Below are positions 1,615-48,790 of a stretch of 60,890 nucleotides of DNA, piece after piece. Source of the stretch: a virus (lineage: Duplodnaviria > Caudoviricetes); IMG/VR virus record IMGVR_UViG_3300037424_000169, positions 1-60,890 of that record, one strand, 5' to 3'. The stretch's first letter is position 1; each line of letters starts with the position of its first letter. Under the pieces are notes generated by a model. That model saw only the letters and a program-made list of their open reading frames with translations, ran no database searches and was not told the origin of the DNA. Both the position numbers and the translations under genes were made by a program.

Positions 1615-1863
1615 ATGTCTGACGATATTCCCCGTGGTCCTGAAGATTTGCCGCCTAAGCAATACGTTCGAGATTTTCCGTTAGTTGTTTTAGTTAAAGA
1701 TATTAAAAGTGGTAGGATCATTAGGGAAGAGCATGTAAATTATTCCGATAGTGATGCTAGAAAGTGGATAGGAAAATTAACTTTCTATATGTGCAATCAG
1801 GGATATAGTATTGTCACAATGGCAGAAAAAGATTATCATTCTTTAGAAGATATAAAGCCTTGA
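1615..1863 (+). CDS. hypothetical protein
   Basis: ORF with AGGA RBS. Confidence 0.6.
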   Translation: MSDDIPRGPEDLPPKQYVRDFPLVVLVKDIKSGRIIREEHVNYSDSDARKWIGKLTFYMCNQGYSIVTMAEKDYHSLEDIKP

Positions 1864-1888
1864 CTTTATAAAGTTAATGATATAATGT
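1860..1888 (+). promoter_or_regulatory. sigma70-type promoter for tRNA-Leu
   Basis: TTGACT-N17-TAATGT, overlapping a TATAAT. Confidence 0.55.
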
Positions 1889-1900
1889 GATTTAGTAATA

Positions 1901-1985
1901 GCGGACTTGGCGAAACTGGTAGACGCATTAGGCTTAAGACCTAACACCGTAAGGTATGCCGGTTCGACCCCGGCAGTCCGCACCA
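1901..1985 (+). tRNA. tRNA-Leu(UAA)
   Basis: cloverleaf with long variable arm, anticodon loop CTTAAGA, GGTTCGA T-loop, CCA end. Confidence 0.95.
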
Positions 1986-2849: not shown

Positions 2850-2924
2850 GCTGGTTTAGCTCAGTGGTAGAGCAAGACTTTTGTAAAGTCGAGGTCGGAA
2901 GTTCAAATCTTTCAATCAGCACCA
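2850..2924 (+). tRNA. tRNA-Thr(UGU)
   Basis: cloverleaf, anticodon loop TTTGTAA, GTTCAAATC T-loop, CCA end. Confidence 0.92.
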
Positions 2925-44679: not shown

Positions 44680-44756
44680 TGGTCTGTGTGAAAGGATTTG
44701 AACCTTTGACCTTTCCGCTCCAAACGGAAAGCTCTACCAGACTGAGCTACACACAG
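44680..44756 (-). tRNA. tRNA-Pro(UGG)
   Basis: reverse complement CTGTGTGTAGCTCAGTCTGGTAGAGC...TTTGGAG...GGTTCAAATCC...CACACAGACCA. Confidence 0.95.
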
Positions 44757-45039: not shown

Positions 45040-45560
45040 TTTTTCACCTTCGGCTCTTTCACAGTCAACGTAGGAGCAGCATCGGTAATTTCCAACATTA
45101 TCTCAGTTAGTTTTAAAATGCGTTTTGCATTCTCATTACCGCTTGCAGCATCTTCTTGAAGCTTGGTATATTCAGTCTTGAGAAAGTTGGGCGTCCAAGA
45201 TACAAGACGATCCGCAATGAACGGTCCCTCATTACCAACTTGAGCAATTTCCTGAAGTGTCTTTTCTACAATCTCATTATCAGCCAAACGATAGTTATAT
45301 TTTACAACAGCCTTCAACTCATAGCCGTTGCCAAGCTCTAATGTATTAGTGCCTTCGCTCTTAGAAGGAAACGCACGATTTACAATATATTTGCGAAGTT
45401 CCATTTCCTCTGCTTTTAAAGCAGCAAGATCGGCTTGCATCTTTTGATGCTTCATTAAAAGCTGGTCTTGACTTAAAGCGTCCAGGGGGTTTGATGGTTC
45501 GCTTTTACAAATTGGAGCGTCAACTTGAACAGACTTATCGTAGCTCGAAGACCAATTCAT
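45036..45560 (-). CDS. hypothetical coiled-coil protein of recombination module
   Basis: first gene of leftward operon; 'EGTNTLELGNGYELK'. Confidence 0.7.
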   Translation of the reverse strand: MNWSSSYDKSVQVDAPICKSEPSNPLDALSQDQLLMKHQKMQADLAALKAEEMELRKYIVNRAFPSKSEGTNTLELGNGYELKAVVKYNYRLADNEIVEKTLQEIAQVGNEGPFIADRLVSWTPNFLKTEYTKLQEDAASGNENAKRILKLTEIMLEITDAAPTLTVKEPKVKK

Positions 45561-45589
45561 TTTTCATTATCCATTTAAATTAAAAGTAA

Positions 45590-45713
45590 GGTGTTGAGAG
45601 AATGAGGGCTCAAACAGTGCAGCCTTGCACCTTTCCCGGATCACTGGACTACAGCAGTAGCAGCAATCATATTTGACCTAGGTTAATGGCGAGCGGTCAT
45701 CCTCTCAACAACC
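45590..45713 (-). ncRNA. candidate structured RNA / 5' leader
   Basis: 13-bp closing stem GTTGAGAGGATGA/TCATTCTCTCAAC with internal hairpins, starting right at the predicted TSS. Confidence 0.5.
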
Positions 45714-45716
45714 AGC

Positions 45717-45787
45717 ACCCTAGCACAGCAAAAAATCCTGTCAATAACTAATTGTCACTTGACGTTGTATTATTGGCGGCGTATCTG
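45717..45787. promoter_or_regulatory. divergent promoter pair
   Basis: minus TTGACA(45744-45739)-N16-TAGGGT; plus TTGACG(45759)-N17-TATCTG. Confidence 0.6.
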
Positions 45788-45817
45788 TGGAAAGAACGCG
45801 CTAAAAATTAGGGATAA

Positions 45818-46015
45818 ATGCCCACAATGGATTTGTATACAGAAACTTTAAAATTAATTCAGGACCGACCCGCAAAGCTGGAACTTATACAAATAGCCAA
45901 AGATTTGAAGATCAGTTATAGTTGGGTTTTAAAATTTCATAAAGATGAAATTAGAAATCCTTCTTACCGTACTCTTCAATCTTTACATGACTATTTGGTA
46001 AAGCACTCTATATAG
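45818..46015 (+). CDS. Cro/XRE-like HTH regulator
   Basis: 'IAKDLKISYSWV...IRNPSYRTLQSL'. Confidence 0.8.
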   Translation: MPTMDLYTETLKLIQDRPAKLELIQIAKDLKISYSWVLKFHKDEIRNPSYRTLQSLHDYLVKHSI

Positions 46016-46019
46016 CTTT

Positions 46020-48368
46020 GTGGGGGTTGTTCTGCCAAATAATTTTAATAATATTCCAGCCGAATTGCGTGCATTCCGAAGTTGGATTTGCTGGCGCTAT
46101 GAAGATATTGGGGCATCTAAGCTAAGCAAGGTCCCGTATCAACTTAATGGTAACAAAGCAAGTGTAACCGATCCCTCACATTGGAGTAGCTTTGATGAAG
46201 TATGCAATTGCGTTAGCAATTATTCTGGCATTGGCTTTGTGTTTAGCTCCCACAATCCTTACTCATTTATTGATTTAGACCAAACCGACAACCCCGAAAC
46301 TCTAAAACGTCAACAAGAAATATTTAAAACCTTTGCTTCATACTCCGAACTATCGCCAAGCGGTCAAGGTTTACACATTATTGTTAAAGGGTCTGTACCG
46401 CAAGGAAGGCGGCGCAATTCTATAGAGATTTATTCAAATGAACGCTATGCTACTTTTACCGGCAATGTTTATTTAAATGAGCCAATTAGAGAATGTCAGG
46501 CTGAGCTAACAGCATTGTGGGAAAGTTTGGGTAATGAAAAATCTCAACAATTAAAATTTGAAAGCCAGCCTGAGACAACTTCGGATCAAGAAGTAATTCG
46601 TATAGCTTCTGACGCTGCTAACGGTAATAAGTTTCAAGCTCTTTGGACTGGTGAATGGGGTGGTTTATATCCTTCTCAATCCGAAGCCGATCATTCTTTA
46701 ATAAACATGATTGCATTTTATACTAAAAATAAAATGCAAGTTGTTCGTATCTTTAGGCAGTCTGCGCTAGGGAAAAGAGAAAAAGCTAAACGTGGAGACT
46801 ATATTAAAAATATGGTCGATAAAGCTTTTGATCGTGAATTACCACCTATTGACATTGATGATATTAAAATACAAACTGAAGACGCGATTAGGGAGAGTAG
46901 CTTAAAGGTAAAGCCAGTTCCTCATAAGAACTTAGATGAAGGTTCGACCCCTTCTTCTCCCACCAATCCTTTAATTTTAATACCTGAAATTAAAAATAAA
47001 CCTTTCTTAACTCCACCACATGGATTAGTTGGGGAAATCGCACAGTTTATTTATGCCGCTGCTCCTAGACCCGTACCGGAAATTGCCATAGCGGCTGCAA
47101 TAGGTTTAATGGCTGGTATCTGTGGACGTGCCTACAATGTATCGTCAACAGGTTTAAACCAATATGTATTGCTATTAGCCAAAACAGGTAGAGGCAAAGA
47201 AGCCATCCAATCTGGTATATCTAAATTAATAGCTCACGTTCGCCAGCAAGTCCCCTCAATTGAAGAATGTATAGGGCCGGATGAAATTGCATCAGGCCCG
47301 GCACTTTATAAATATTTAAATAAAAATCCAGGTTTTGTATCTGTGCTATCTGAGTTTGGTTTACGTCTTGCTGCAATGTCGGACGGCCACGGCAATGGGG
47401 CTAATGTTTCCTTACGCCGCATGATCTTACAGCTTTACGCTAAGTCTGGCTTTAATGATGTAGCGCACCCTTCGATCTATTCCGATAAAGATAAAAATAT
47501 TGCCGCTATCCCTTCACCTGCATTTAGCATTTTAGGTGAAAGCACCCCTCACACATTTTATAAAAATCTAAATGAAGAAATGATTAGTGAAGGGTTGCTA
47601 CCTCGATTTCTTTTAATTGAATATGATGGCGAGCGTGTAGCAGAGAATGTAAATCATGCTAAAGCTGTGCCCTCCAATGAGTTGATAGATAAGCTGGCTC
47701 AAATTGCTGCTAATGCAGCGACCGTTGAAAATTCTCAGCCTAGGCGCGTTATCACTGTAAATTTTTCAGCCGAAGCTTCTAAAATAGCTGTTGATTTTTC
47801 AAATCAATGCGACCGTTTTATAAATAATAAAAATAATAATGAAGTTGTGATTGAGCTATGGAATAGAGCGCATTTGAAAGCTTTAAAACTTGCGGCGGTG
47901 GTCAGTGTAGGCATTAATATGTGGAACCCCACAATAGAAAAAGAACATTTAGAATGGGCTATTGGAATGGTAAATGCTGATATCAATACTCTCACTGAAA
48001 AATTTGCCAGCGGAAAGATCGGCGCAAATACTCAAGAGATAAAACAGATTGATGAAGTCGGTAGAGTTATTAAAGAATATGCTACTGGCGATTGGAAAGA
48101 AATTTCTAAATATTGTACAGCTAAAGATAAAATTTTATTTGAGGAAAAGGTTATACCTTACGGCTTTATTTCTAAAAGGCTAGTAGGTGTTGCTGCATTT
48201 AGAGTTGATAAAATGGGAGCTACGTTTGCAATTAAACGCACCATTCAAATTTTAATGGATCGTGACTATATACAAGAATTAAGCCGTCAACAATTAAAAG
48301 ATAAATTTGGTACTACACAGAAAAGTTACATGATTACAAATATAAAATTGTTGGAGGAAGGGGATTAA
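46020..48368 (+). CDS. primase-polymerase with C-terminal helicase-like (DUF3987-like) domain
   Basis: 'KVPY', 'GIGFVF..FIDLD', 'ELSPSGQGLH', 'SQSEAD'; C-terminal 'LLAKTGRGKE', 'GLLPRFL'. Confidence 0.9.
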   Translation: MGVVLPNNFNNIPAELRAFRSWICWRYEDIGASKLSKVPYQLNGNKASVTDPSHWSSFDEVCNCVSNYSGIGFVFSSHNPYSFIDLDQTDNPETLKRQQEIFKTFASYSELSPSGQGLHIIVKGSVPQGRRRNSIEIYSNERYATFTGNVYLNEPIRECQAELTALWESLGNEKSQQLKFESQPETTSDQEVIRIASDAANGNKFQALWTGEWGGLYPSQSEADHSLINMIAFYTKNKMQVVRIFRQSALGKREKAKRGDYIKNMVDKAFDRELPPIDIDDIKIQTEDAIRESSLKVKPVPHKNLDEGSTPSSPTNPLILIPEIKNKPFLTPPHGLVGEIAQFIYAAAPRPVPEIAIAAAIGLMAGICGRAYNVSSTGLNQYVLLLAKTGRGKEAIQSGISKLIAHVRQQVPSIEECIGPDEIASGPALYKYLNKNPGFVSVLSEFGLRLAAMSDGHGNGANVSLRRMILQLYAKSGFNDVAHPSIYSDKDKNIAAIPSPAFSILGESTPHTFYKNLNEEMISEGLLPRFLLIEYDGERVAENVNHAKAVPSNELIDKLAQIAANAATVENSQPRRVITVNFSAEASKIAVDFSNQCDRFINNKNNNEVVIELWNRAHLKALKLAAVVSVGINMWNPTIEKEHLEWAIGMVNADINTLTEKFASGKIGANTQEIKQIDEVGRVIKEYATGDWKEISKYCTAKDKILFEEKVIPYGFISKRLVGVAAFRVDKMGATFAIKRTIQILMDRDYIQELSRQQLKDKFGTTQKSYMITNIKLLEEGD
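46891..46965 (+). tRNA. tRNA with CAU anticodon (Ile2 or elongator Met) nested in primase CDS
   Basis: GGGAGAG/TTCTCCC acceptor, GCTT/AAGC D-stem, AGTTC-CTCATAA-GAACT anticodon arm, GAAGG-TTCGACC-CCTTC T-arm, ACCA end. Confidence 0.9.
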
Positions 48369-48790
48369 TCTTTAGCCCAACTTACTTACGCTCCCCCCGG
48401 TTCACTGGCTAGGGCGGCGCGCGATGCTGCGATAACATTTTGTCTTTCAGTCTCGTAGCAATCTACAAAGGTCGATTTTCCATCTGCGATAAATTCGACT
48501 GCGCGTTTCAACGCTTCCCTTACCTTGTCAGTCATTTCTACCACCCATAAATAATAGTTTGGCTATCAGCAATATAATCCAACCATATCCAAACGGCAAG
48601 CACAAATAAGCTGAGTACAGTAAGGGTTGACAGTTCTTTTAAAATCCACATTTGGTTAATCCTTTTTAAAATTAAACGGGGCTTCTTATCCAACTATAGG
48701 TATTTCTATAGTTTTAGGTTAAACCCAGATAAGAACTTTTGTCTAGCATTAGTACCATAGCCGTTTGCCAGCTATAGAACCCCAAACAAT

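What the first reader, a model, noticed from the sequence alone, without database searches (positions are those of the whole stretch)
46849..46965. Complete tRNA(CAU) gene nested in-frame inside the primase coding sequence
Seen: 46891-46965 folds into a canonical 75-nt cloverleaf with all four stems paired, a CTCATAA anticodon loop, a TTCGA T-loop and an encoded CCA. It lies on the same strand as, and inside, the uninterrupted 782-aa primase ORF, where it reads RESSLKVKPVPHKNLDEGSTPSSPT in the linker between the prim-pol and helicase-like domains. 75 nt is 25 codons, so insertion or loss keeps the frame. A TTGACA at 46849 sits 42 nt upstream, matching the 41 nt between TTGACT and tRNA-Leu. Inference: this is dual-coding DNA. 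tRNA maturation (RNase P and 3' processing) would cut the primase mRNA, coupling tRNA supply to replication-gene expression, or an internal promoter makes the tRNA independently.
Basis: partly seen in the sequence, partly recalled or inferred. Interest (0 to 1): 0.92.

Follow-up and report, generated by a model that had tools for sequence, protein, structure and literature searches.

The report
tRNA gene nested inside phage primase
A complete tRNA gene lies in frame inside the floppy linker of this phage's essential primase-helicase gene, and related uncultured phages keep one to three tRNAs at the same spot, so one stretch of DNA seems to serve as both protein code and tRNA gene.

Summary
ARAGORN and Rfam (60.4 bits against a cut-off of 29) call a 75-nt tRNA(CAU) with encoded CCA at 46891-46965. 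It lies inside the uninterrupted 782-aa primase-helicase ORF. Independent assemblies bridge it.

It is not a one-off. 20 of 116 distinct related loci carry 1-3 tRNAs (Met/Ile2-CAU, Gln-UUG, once Arg-UCU) at this linker, 33 in all. All 33 pass Rfam and all 33 are read through in a stop-free frame. Stems show massive compensatory change. The tRNA stretch lacks codon periodicity and evolves more slowly than the flanking domains. AlphaFold2 predicts a disordered linker there.

The nested tRNAs are the only CAU and UUG copies in the complete genomes checked.

Not shown: expression, or how tRNA and protein share one transcript.

The closest case in print is selC nested in selB (Mukai 2021). I found no phage case in print. 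This scan noted the same arrangement before on other genomes.

The parts
46020..48368 (+). Primase-helicase ORF, 782 aa, uninterrupted, including the stop codon
   Evidence: ORF list. phrog_3022 'DNA primase', E 2e-233, over residues 7-770. Pfam NrS1-1_pol-like_HBD at 220-271 and DUF3987 at 490-652. About 48% identical to Septimatrevirus-type primase/helicases.
46020..46901 (+). N-terminal primase-polymerase plus helix-bundle half (residues 1-294)
   Evidence: AF2 blocks mostly at pLDDT 80-94, with the last helix at 279-294. D85, D87 and H119 are invariant in 34 sequences. Calling these the primase-polymerase catalytic motifs is recalled, not tested.
46891..46965 (+). tRNA(CAU), 75 nt with encoded CCA. 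Isotype is Met elongator or Ile2, unresolved. Read by the ORF as residues 291-315 plus the first base of codon 316.
   Evidence: ARAGORN. Rfam 60.4 bits. Only stop-free frame is the primase frame. Covariation in 18 homologous nested tRNAs.
46966..47012 (+). Rest of the linker (residues 316-331, NPLILIPEIKNKPFLT), AT-rich. The three nearest relatives have a tRNA-Gln here.
   Evidence: DNA alignment. No tRNA relic at E<=1. The 15 nt after the CCA are 87% A+T. pLDDT below 50 up to residue 323.
47013..48365 (+). Helicase half (residues 332-782), starting at PPHGLVGE. No start codon of its own.
   Evidence: DUF3987. P-loop-like T389, G390, G392, K393 and E394 are invariant. No in-frame ATG, GTG or TTG between the tRNA and this motif. 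Stand-alone bacterial homologs start matching at query residues 317-333.
46849..46854 (+). TTGACA hexamer, -35-like, 42 nt before the tRNA. Probably a by-product of the Ile-Asp-Ile codons.
   Evidence: Sequence. Not listed by the promoter scan. The hexamer 17 nt on is CAAACT, and TTGAC lies at -37 to -45 in only 6 of 20 loci.
1901..1985 (+). Free-standing tRNA-Leu(UAA) of the same phage tRNA set
   Evidence: ARAGORN. Rfam 55.6 bits. Its open frame spans only 35 codons.
1860..1886 (+). Promoter-like site before tRNA-Leu: TTGACT, then TG-a-TATAAT
   Evidence: Read directly from the sequence. Used as a contrast to the nested tRNA.
2850..2924 (+). Free-standing tRNA-Thr(UGU)
   Evidence: ARAGORN. 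Rfam 66.7 bits. Open frame of 41 codons only.
44680..44756 (-). Free-standing tRNA-Pro(UGG)
   Evidence: ARAGORN. Rfam 66.1 bits. Open frame of 39 codons only.

Best explanation
The 75 bases at 46891-46965 are a working tRNA gene (anticodon CAU) and, at the same time, 25 codons of the disordered linker joining the primase-polymerase half to the helicase half of an essential phage replication protein.

Shown: both readings are kept by selection across a clade of uncultured phages.

Inferred mechanism: the tRNA has no promoter of its own and is made from the primase transcript.
- A transcript covered by ribosomes is read straight through. This gives the full-length enzyme, with the tRNA-derived Gly/Ser/Pro/Thr-rich peptide as a passive tether.
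- A transcript, or decay fragment, that is free of ribosomes folds into the cloverleaf. Host RNase P cuts the 5' end and the 3' end is trimmed back to the encoded CCA, releasing a stable tRNA and destroying that mRNA copy.

The tRNA probably extends the phage's set of readers of A-ending codons. That set is Leu-UUA, Thr-ACA and Pro-CCA here, plus Gln-CAA and Arg-AGA in relatives. On that logic it may be a lysidine-modified tRNA-Ile2 reading AUA rather than tRNA-Met.

Whole linkers, with their tRNAs, appear to be exchanged between related phages by recombination.
For: tRNA reality:
- 33 of 33 nested tRNAs pass the Rfam gathering score, at 48.7-70.2 bits.
- 32 of 33 end in CCA.
- CTCATAA is invariant in 18 of 18 CAU tRNAs, and TTTG in 13 of 13 Gln tRNAs.
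- CAU set: 99.7% of 357 stem cells pair, against 80.2% in shuffles and 32-50% with slid partners. 16 of 21 pairs show double changes. 0 of 500 shuffles reach the observed values.
- Gln set: 98.5%, against 69.9% and 30-45%. 16 of 21 pairs, 0 of 500.

RNA-level constraint: pairwise divergence by codon position 1/2/3 is 0.34/0.25/0.57 in the flanking domains and 0.20/0.22/0.25 in the tRNA-Met stretch of the same 15 loci.

Translation through the tRNAs:
- The primase frame is stop-free through 33 of 33 nested tRNAs. Only 10 of 36 forward frames are open in 12 free-standing tRNAs.
- 75-nt and 76-nt CAU tRNAs enter the frame at different codon positions, yet the frame is kept.
- 16 of 20 loci have no in-frame start codon between the last tRNA and the helicase half, and the gap can be 0-3 codons.

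Linker: AF2 gives pLDDT below 50 and no secondary structure at 293-323, between confident domains. tRNA-less homologs have an unalignable linker at the same place.

Non-redundancy: in the window and 4 of 4 complete relatives checked, the free-standing tRNAs are only Leu(UAA), Pro(UGG) and Thr(UGU).

Codon use: ATA is 28% of Ile codons, CAA 80% of Gln and TTA 50% of Leu.

What a dead copy looks like: L044 has a broken anticodon arm, no CCA and the lowest score, but is still in frame.
Against: - No expression data of any kind. No mature tRNA, cleavage ends or peptides were seen.
- The host is unknown, so charging and codon demand cannot be checked.
- Processing out of the mRNA would leave a non-stop 5' fragment, which is costly.
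- tRNA divergence does not track primase divergence: Spearman 0.19 with 189 of 2000 permutations as high for CAU, and -0.02 for Gln. Part of the 'compensatory' signal therefore reflects swapped-in tRNA alleles rather than change in place.
- Most tRNAs already have one stop-free frame (10 of 12 free-standing ones), so an open frame is easier to obtain than it first seems.
- A weak internal promoter is not excluded: the best match reaches 9 or more of 12 in 8 of 20 loci, against 19% of 319 control windows.
- Met versus Ile2 is undecided. The closest phage tRNAs are annotated Ile in 8 listed rows and Met in 4.
Confidence: 0.7

Rival explanations
1. The tRNA is functional but is transcribed independently from a promoter inside the primase gene, so tRNA output is uncoupled from primase mRNA fate.
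For: TTGACA lies 42 nt upstream, much as TTGACT lies 41 nt before tRNA-Leu. TTGAC lies at -37 to -45 in 6 of 20 loci. The best sigma-70-like match in the 90 nt upstream reaches 9 or more of 12 in 8 of 20 loci, against 19% of 319 control windows.
Against: The hexamer 17 nt on is CAAACT (3 of 6), and the promoter scan lists no site there: 4 sites in 45400-48600, against 9.1 expected from shuffles. TTGACA is encoded by the conserved Ile-Asp codons. 14 of 20 loci lack TTGAC at that distance, and no -10 is conserved. Only sigma-70-type consensus was tested.
Confidence: 0.12
2. The cloverleaves act in cis rather than as decoders. They would be RNase P targets or ribosome roadblocks that set the amount or timing of primase-helicase synthesis, or that yield a primase-only product.
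For: The position at the exact junction of two modules would suit a switch. Mukai 2021 proposes alternative expression for selB/selC.
Against: - Anticodons and anticodon loops are invariant while stems vary.
- The isoacceptors (CAU, UUG, UCU) complement the free-standing set and are not duplicated elsewhere in the genomes checked.
- CCA is kept in 32 of 33.
- One, two or three tRNAs in either order serve equally, which a tuned switch would not predict.
- tRNA-less members of the same clade do without.
Confidence: 0.1
3. The nested tRNAs are neutral passengers or relics. On this view tRNA genes landed in the only insertion-tolerant part of the gene and simply have not decayed yet.
For: Most tRNAs offer one stop-free frame (10 of 12). 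The linker tolerates any sequence. Eight tRNA-less members sit inside the tRNA-bearing clade. One copy, L044, is visibly decaying.
Against: The tRNA stretch diverges less than even second codon positions of the flanking domains (0.20-0.25 against 0.25-0.57). 99.7% and 98.5% of stem cells pair across primases down to about 49% identity. The tRNA-less relatives examined show no relics at E<=1, so loss is clean rather than slow decay.
Confidence: 0.05
4. The tRNA is a phage attachment site (attP) for integration into a host tRNA gene, or it is an assembly chimera.
For: Many temperate elements integrate at tRNA genes (general knowledge).
Against: No tyrosine or serine recombinase in the complete 60.9-kb genome: PF00589 and PF00239 give 0 hits and the control genomes ring. 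The cloverleaves are complete, number one to three, and come in both orders. Contigs from separate runs and studies bridge the junctions.
Confidence: 0.02

Closest known systems
selC (tRNA-Sec) nested in the selB ORF of Alphaproteobacteria (Mukai 2021, PMC8124441). I read the abstract and matched passages.
   Same: A whole tRNA on the sense strand inside a protein ORF. The tRNA length often keeps the frame. The proposed model is that tRNA processing and full-length translation are alternative fates of one mRNA. Bioinformatic evidence only.
   Different: There the tRNA forms a C-terminal extension just before the stop codon, so cutting it out costs little, and tRNA and protein are functional partners. 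Here the tRNAs sit between two essential domains. They number one to three, are ordinary elongator-type isoacceptors unrelated to the protein's job, and are in phages.
Ordinary phage tRNA genes and tRNA operons (intergenic clusters). The window's own Leu, Thr and Pro genes and the 6-tRNA array of L112 are examples.
   Same: The same kind of isoacceptors (readers of A-ending codons), encoded CCA, tandem spacing of 1-7 nt in many loci, and canonical cloverleaves.
   Different: Those lie outside long ORFs, with open frames of only 35-41 codons, and tRNA-Leu has its own promoter-like site. The nested ones are translated as part of a 782-aa protein.
Primase/helicase of Septimatrevirus-type siphophages (for example Pseudomonas phage Kakheti25 gp38, Burkholderia phage KL1, phage FtMidnight)
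   Same: The same two-module protein at about 48% identity over its full length, with the same neighbouring genes, including a small HTH gene upstream.
   Different: Their linker is Pro/Ala-rich, with no tRNA (0 tRNAs in L001-L004).
Mitochondrial tRNA genes overlapping protein genes (Armadillidium vulgare, Doublet 2015). I saw this only as a citation inside Mukai 2021.
   Same: tRNA and protein code share bases, and processing competes with translation.
   Different: That is an organelle genome under extreme compaction. I did not read the paper.

Membership tests
tRNA (Rfam RF00005) | Covariance-model score above the curated gathering score, over the full model length | tested here: met
   60.4 bits against 29, model positions 1-71 of 71. 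33 of 33 nested tRNAs in relatives pass.
tRNA (Rfam RF00005) | Four-stem cloverleaf supported by covariation | tested here: met
   21 pairs, of which 16 show double changes. 99.7% of cells pair. 0 of 500 shuffles reach this.
tRNA (Rfam RF00005) | 7-nt anticodon loop with U33, a T-loop TTCRA, and a 3' CCA | tested here: met
   CTCATAA, TTCGACC and ACCA read from the sequence. The position numbering is recalled.
tRNA (Rfam RF00005) | Made as a stable RNA of about 75 nt and aminoacylated | not testable with these tools
   No RNA run was listed for this stretch.
tRNA-Ile2 (lysidine) as opposed to elongator tRNA-Met | Isotype-specific identity elements or model score | tested here: inconclusive
   No isotype model was on hand. 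The nearest phage tRNAs are annotated Ile in 8 listed rows and Met in 4. The A-ending codon logic is inference only.
Phage primase-helicase (phrog_3022: primase-polymerase + NrS-1-type helix bundle + DUF3987) | Full-length profile match and both domain families | tested here: met
   phrog_3022 E 2e-233 over 7-770. PF22763 and PF13148 are both above their cut-offs.
Phage primase-helicase (phrog_3022: primase-polymerase + NrS-1-type helix bundle + DUF3987) | Conserved acidic/His motifs in the N-terminal half and a P-loop in the C-terminal half | tested here: met
   D85, D87, H119, G390, G392 and K393 are invariant in 34 sequences. Their catalytic role is recalled, not assayed.
Nested tRNA of the selB/selC type (Mukai 2021) | Entire tRNA inside a protein ORF on the same strand | tested here: met
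Nested tRNA of the selB/selC type (Mukai 2021) | The tRNA forms a C-terminal extension that ends at or near the stop codon | tested here: not met
   The tRNA covers residues 291-316 of 782, and 466 residues of conserved helicase follow it.
Nested tRNA of the selB/selC type (Mukai 2021) | The tRNA and host protein act in one pathway | tested here: not met
   The host protein is a replication enzyme, and the tRNAs are CAU, UUG and UCU isoacceptors.
tRNA-type attP site of a temperate phage | An integrase encoded in the genome | tested here: not met
   PF00589 and PF00239 give 0 hits in the complete record.

The most novel reading that the evidence does not exclude
The linker of this primase-helicase family is a heritable, recombining 'tRNA bay'. 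The phage's only CAU and UUG tRNA genes would be expressed by sacrificing replication-gene mRNA. RNase P cleavage would turn each early primase transcript into stable tRNAs. That would shut off primase-helicase synthesis and stock the cell with readers of A-ending codons for late-gene translation, acting as a built-in early-to-late timer that needs no dedicated promoter or regulator.
Probability: 0.3. Interest if true: 0.9.

Novelty: new variant of a known kind. Interest (0 to 1): 0.8.

Why it matters
Sense-strand overlap of a tRNA gene with the interior of an essential protein-coding gene is almost unknown. The one bacterial case in print that I found (selB/selC) sits in a dispensable tail.

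Here, one to three tRNAs sit between two indispensable domains, across a clade of phages. That raises a testable question: how does a cell divide one transcript between translation and RNase P processing?

It also has practical consequences:
- Annotation pipelines that forbid tRNA/CDS overlap will either drop these tRNAs or split the primase gene.
- The fact that most tRNAs have one stop-free frame, encoding a Gly/Ser/Pro/Thr-rich peptide, suggests that disordered linkers are general landing places for tRNA genes in compact genomes. I did not test that claim.

Tried and rejected
- Assembly chimera: rejected.
- attP or integration site: no recombinase found.
- Internal promoter: not supported.
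- Decayed tRNA relics in tRNA-less clade members (L015, L016, L018, L019, L041, L067) and after the window's own tRNA: none at E<=1.
- A general AU-rich 3' trailer as an RNase E site: not seen. Mean A+T is 0.53 in the 15 nt after the tRNAs, against 0.60 for the ORFs. The window's own trailer is 0.87.
- Expression: no RNA holder listed, so nothing can be said either way.
- Near-identical phage records: none by megablast. The window's tRNA has no blastn match among phage records.
- Met versus Ile2 from annotations of similar phage tRNAs: ambiguous.
- Strict co-divergence of tRNA and primase: not found. This moved me from 'compensatory change in place' towards 'exchange of whole linkers', which also fits L010 sharing L006's spacer although its domains are closer to the window.
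- First tree: my motif-based trimming dropped 38 of 96 rows, 6 of them tRNA-bearing. I replaced it, using all 96 rows and removing linker columns. In one search the midpoint root is distorted by the long branch of L024, so I rely on the unrooted split (27 rows, support 100). L021 (partial ORF, under 700 aa) is in neither tree.
- Papers: Patience (PMC4324244, passages) and the virus tRNA survey (PMC6409571, passages) turned out to be irrelevant. Paper supplements were not opened.
- (51 of 120 homologs with tRNA-like peptides) is a protein-level proxy only. The DNA of those proteins could not be fetched.
Full report
**What is there**

The window is a complete 60,890-base virus record, 36.8% G+C.

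At 46891-46965 on the + strand, ARAGORN calls a 75-nt tRNA with anticodon CAT. Rfam's tRNA model gives 60.4 bits (gathering score 29) over the whole model. The sequence shows the CTCATAA anticodon loop, the TTCGACC T-loop and an encoded ACCA end.

The tRNA lies wholly inside the 782-aa ORF 46020-48368. That ORF is a phage primase-helicase:
- phrog_3022, E 2e-233.
- Pfam NrS-1-type helix bundle at 220-271 and DUF3987 at 490-652.

tRNA base 1 is the second base of codon 291. The primase frame is the only one of the tRNA's three forward frames without stops.

Contigs of separate public runs bridge the tRNA inside the gene. X1 does so with 0 differences. X4, from another study, has 54 differences over 678 bases and no gaps. 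It is therefore not an assembly chimera.

**Where it sits in the protein**

Homologs at about 48% identity (Kakheti25, FtMidnight, KL1) have the same two halves. Between them is a Pro/Ala-rich, unalignable linker with no tRNA.

Between the conserved motifs FDRxLPPID and PPGLLGE the linker measures:
- 56-75 aa in tRNA-less relatives.
- 70 aa with one tRNA (the window and L021).
- 86-98 aa with two tRNAs.

An AlphaFold2 model (34-row alignment, mean pLDDT 77.5) has a helix at 279-294. It then has no secondary structure and pLDDT below 50 at 293-323, and a confident C-terminal half from 336. The tRNA-encoded residues 291-316 are thus the tether itself.

Bacterial genomes hold stand-alone relatives of the C-terminal half only. 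Their matches start at query residues 317-333. The tRNA therefore marks a true module junction.

**It recurs**

I collected relatives from the viral, metagenome and genome collections. I removed 16 loci that repeat a contig or duplicate another locus, then ran ARAGORN on 116 distinct loci.

Twenty loci, including the window, carry one to three + strand tRNAs inside the longest stop-free primase frame, 33 tRNAs in all:
- 18 CAU tRNAs.
- 13 Gln(UUG) tRNAs.
- 1 Arg(UCU), in L053, which has three in a row.
- 1 odd 'Tyr' call, in L044.

Four other loci have tRNAs only outside the gene. No locus has a nested tRNA that breaks the frame. All 33 pass Rfam's gathering score, at 48.7-70.2 bits.

The window's three nearest relatives (L010, L005, L006; 73-83% identity) all have Met followed by Gln. 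So the window's lineage has lost, or never received, the second tRNA. No relic of one is detectable.

As a protein-level proxy, HMMs built from the translated nested tRNAs hit the linker of 51 of the 120 best database homologs.

**Selection on the RNA**

In the 18 CAU tRNAs:
- 99.7% of 357 stem cells form standard pairs, against 80.2% in shuffles and 32-50% with slid partners.
- 16 of 21 pairs show changes on both sides.
- None of 500 shuffles reaches the observed values.

The 13 Gln tRNAs give 98.5%, 16 of 21 and 0 of 500.

Anticodon loops are invariant. CCA is encoded in 32 of 33.

Divergence by codon position 1/2/3 is 0.34/0.25/0.57 in 431 flanking codons. In the CAU tRNA stretch of the same 15 loci it is 0.20/0.22/0.25. 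So there is no codon periodicity, and the stretch evolves more slowly than the protein domains, although in tRNA-less relatives this linker is the least conserved part.

L044 shows what a dead copy looks like: its anticodon arm is broken, it has no CCA, and it has the lowest score. It is still in frame.

**Selection on the reading frame**

The primase frame is stop-free through 33 of 33 nested tRNAs. Both other forward frames are closed in 27 of 33.

Among 12 free-standing tRNAs, only 10 of 36 forward frames are open. However, 10 of the 12 have at least one open frame. So tRNAs are generally insertable in one phase, and in that phase they read as a Gly/Ser/Pro/Thr-rich peptide.

CAU tRNAs of 75 and 76 nt enter at different codon positions, yet the frame is restored.

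Sixteen of 20 loci have no in-frame ATG, GTG or TTG between the last tRNA and the helicase half, and that gap is only 0-3 codons in several. The helicase half can therefore only be made by translating through the tRNAs.

**History**

In a tree of 96 primases (linker columns removed), all 19 tRNA-bearing rows lie on one side of a branch with support 100, together with 8 tRNA-less rows. At least 2 changes are forced by well-supported branches and 5 by the full tree.

Orders differ among close relatives (Met-Gln against Gln-Met). Also, tRNA divergence does not follow primase divergence: Spearman 0.19 with 189 of 2000 permutations as high for CAU, and -0.02 for Gln.

I read this as an old association with this linker, plus exchange of whole linkers between phages. 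Part of the covariation therefore reflects different tRNA alleles rather than change in place.

**Function**

The window's other tRNAs are Leu(UAA), Thr(UGU) and Pro(UGG). They are free-standing and end in CCA.

Four complete relatives with nested tRNAs have free-standing Leu(UAA), Pro(UGG) and Thr(UGU) only. The nested CAU and UUG genes are therefore their sole copies.

All of these tRNAs read A-ending codons, which are common in this AT-rich genome (ATA 28% of Ile, CAA 80% of Gln, TTA 50% of Leu). This suggests, but does not show, that the CAU tRNA is a tRNA-Ile2. Annotations of similar phage tRNAs are split between Ile and Met.

**How the tRNA is made is not shown**

The promoter scan does not list it, and it is not conserved among the 20 loci.
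- tRNA-Leu, by contrast, has a TG-n-TATAAT site.
- I therefore favour processing out of the primase transcript, with translation and RNase P processing as alternative fates of each mRNA copy. This is inference, by analogy with the model proposed for selB/selC.
- No RNA run was listed for the stretch.
- No integrase is encoded, which argues against an attP role.

**Comparison with the literature**

Mukai 2021 (PMC8124441; abstract and passages read) describes selC nested in a C-terminal extension of selB. The paper calls it the first nested tRNA in a bacterial protein ORF.

Four full-text searches found no report of tRNAs nested in a phage primase, or in the interior of any phage gene.

This scan's own earlier notes describe the same arrangement on three other genomes, and a similar one in a different phage gene. 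My results agree with them and were obtained independently here.

**Verdict**

The dual-use reading is well supported by comparative evidence. The mechanism of expression remains open.

Noticed in passing
L044:1138-1215: ARAGORN calls this nested 'tRNA-Tyr(gta)', but it looks like a decaying tRNA. The acceptor, D and T arms are intact, the anticodon arm is broken, and the 3' end is GCC rather than CCA. It has the lowest Rfam score (48.7 bits) and is still in frame.
   Followed up: partly
L006:3953-3977 and L010:2447-2465: A conserved AT-rich spacer, containing TATAAT, follows the CAU tRNA directly and reads IYNVNHN. The peptide pattern YN.NHN occurs in 25 of the 120 database homologs. It could be a processing signal, a -10-like box or a peptide motif. 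Unexplained.
   Followed up: partly
L112:801-1300 (- strand): A 62.8-kb contig, binned in a MAG labelled Mucilaginibacter, has a tRNA-less primase at 41% identity. About 1.7 kb upstream it has a free-standing array of six tRNAs (Thr-tgt, Lys-ttt, Ile-tat, Pro-tgg, Arg-tct, Leu-taa), all readers of A-ending codons.
   Followed up: no
Proteins P0012, P0032, P0033, P0037, P0040, P0042, P0047, P0066, P0117 (linker region): A second recurrent linker motif, K[DE]GD[AV], appears in 9 of the 120 homologs, with or without tRNAs. L016 carries a similar peptide (KEGDA) and has no Rfam match at E<=1.
   Followed up: no
Protein P0049 (1158 aa): One tRNA-bearing homolog also carries intein/homing-endonuclease domains (PF05203, PF14528), so the same gene hosts two kinds of in-frame insert.
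   Followed up: no
window 1860-1886: tRNA-Leu is preceded by TTGACT, a 15-nt spacer and TG-a-TATAAT (an extended -10), ending 14 nt before the tRNA. It is a likely strong promoter for the free-standing tRNA.
   Followed up: partly
L116-L131 (bacterial genome contigs): Bacterial chromosomes and MAGs encode stand-alone relatives of the helicase half only. Their matches start at query residues 317-333, right after the tRNA position.
   Followed up: no
L004 (NC_069752, Pseudomonas phage PSV3): The primase-helicase region is annotated as several short hypothetical CDS, and the tblastn match comes in 4 pieces. The gene may be broken, or the record may contain frame errors.
   Followed up: no
window 46247-47148: One contig of run X1 joins 46247 to 47148, skipping 900 bases, with only 27 letters on the shorter side. 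Probably a spurious join or another organism.
   Followed up: no
L111 (contig of a MAG labelled Candidatus Saccharibacteria): A 10.5-kb contig with a Gln-Met nested primase sits in a bacterial bin. Its CAU tRNA is identical to that of viral contig L032. It is probably a phage contig binned with a bacterium, so it gives no firm host clue.
   Followed up: no
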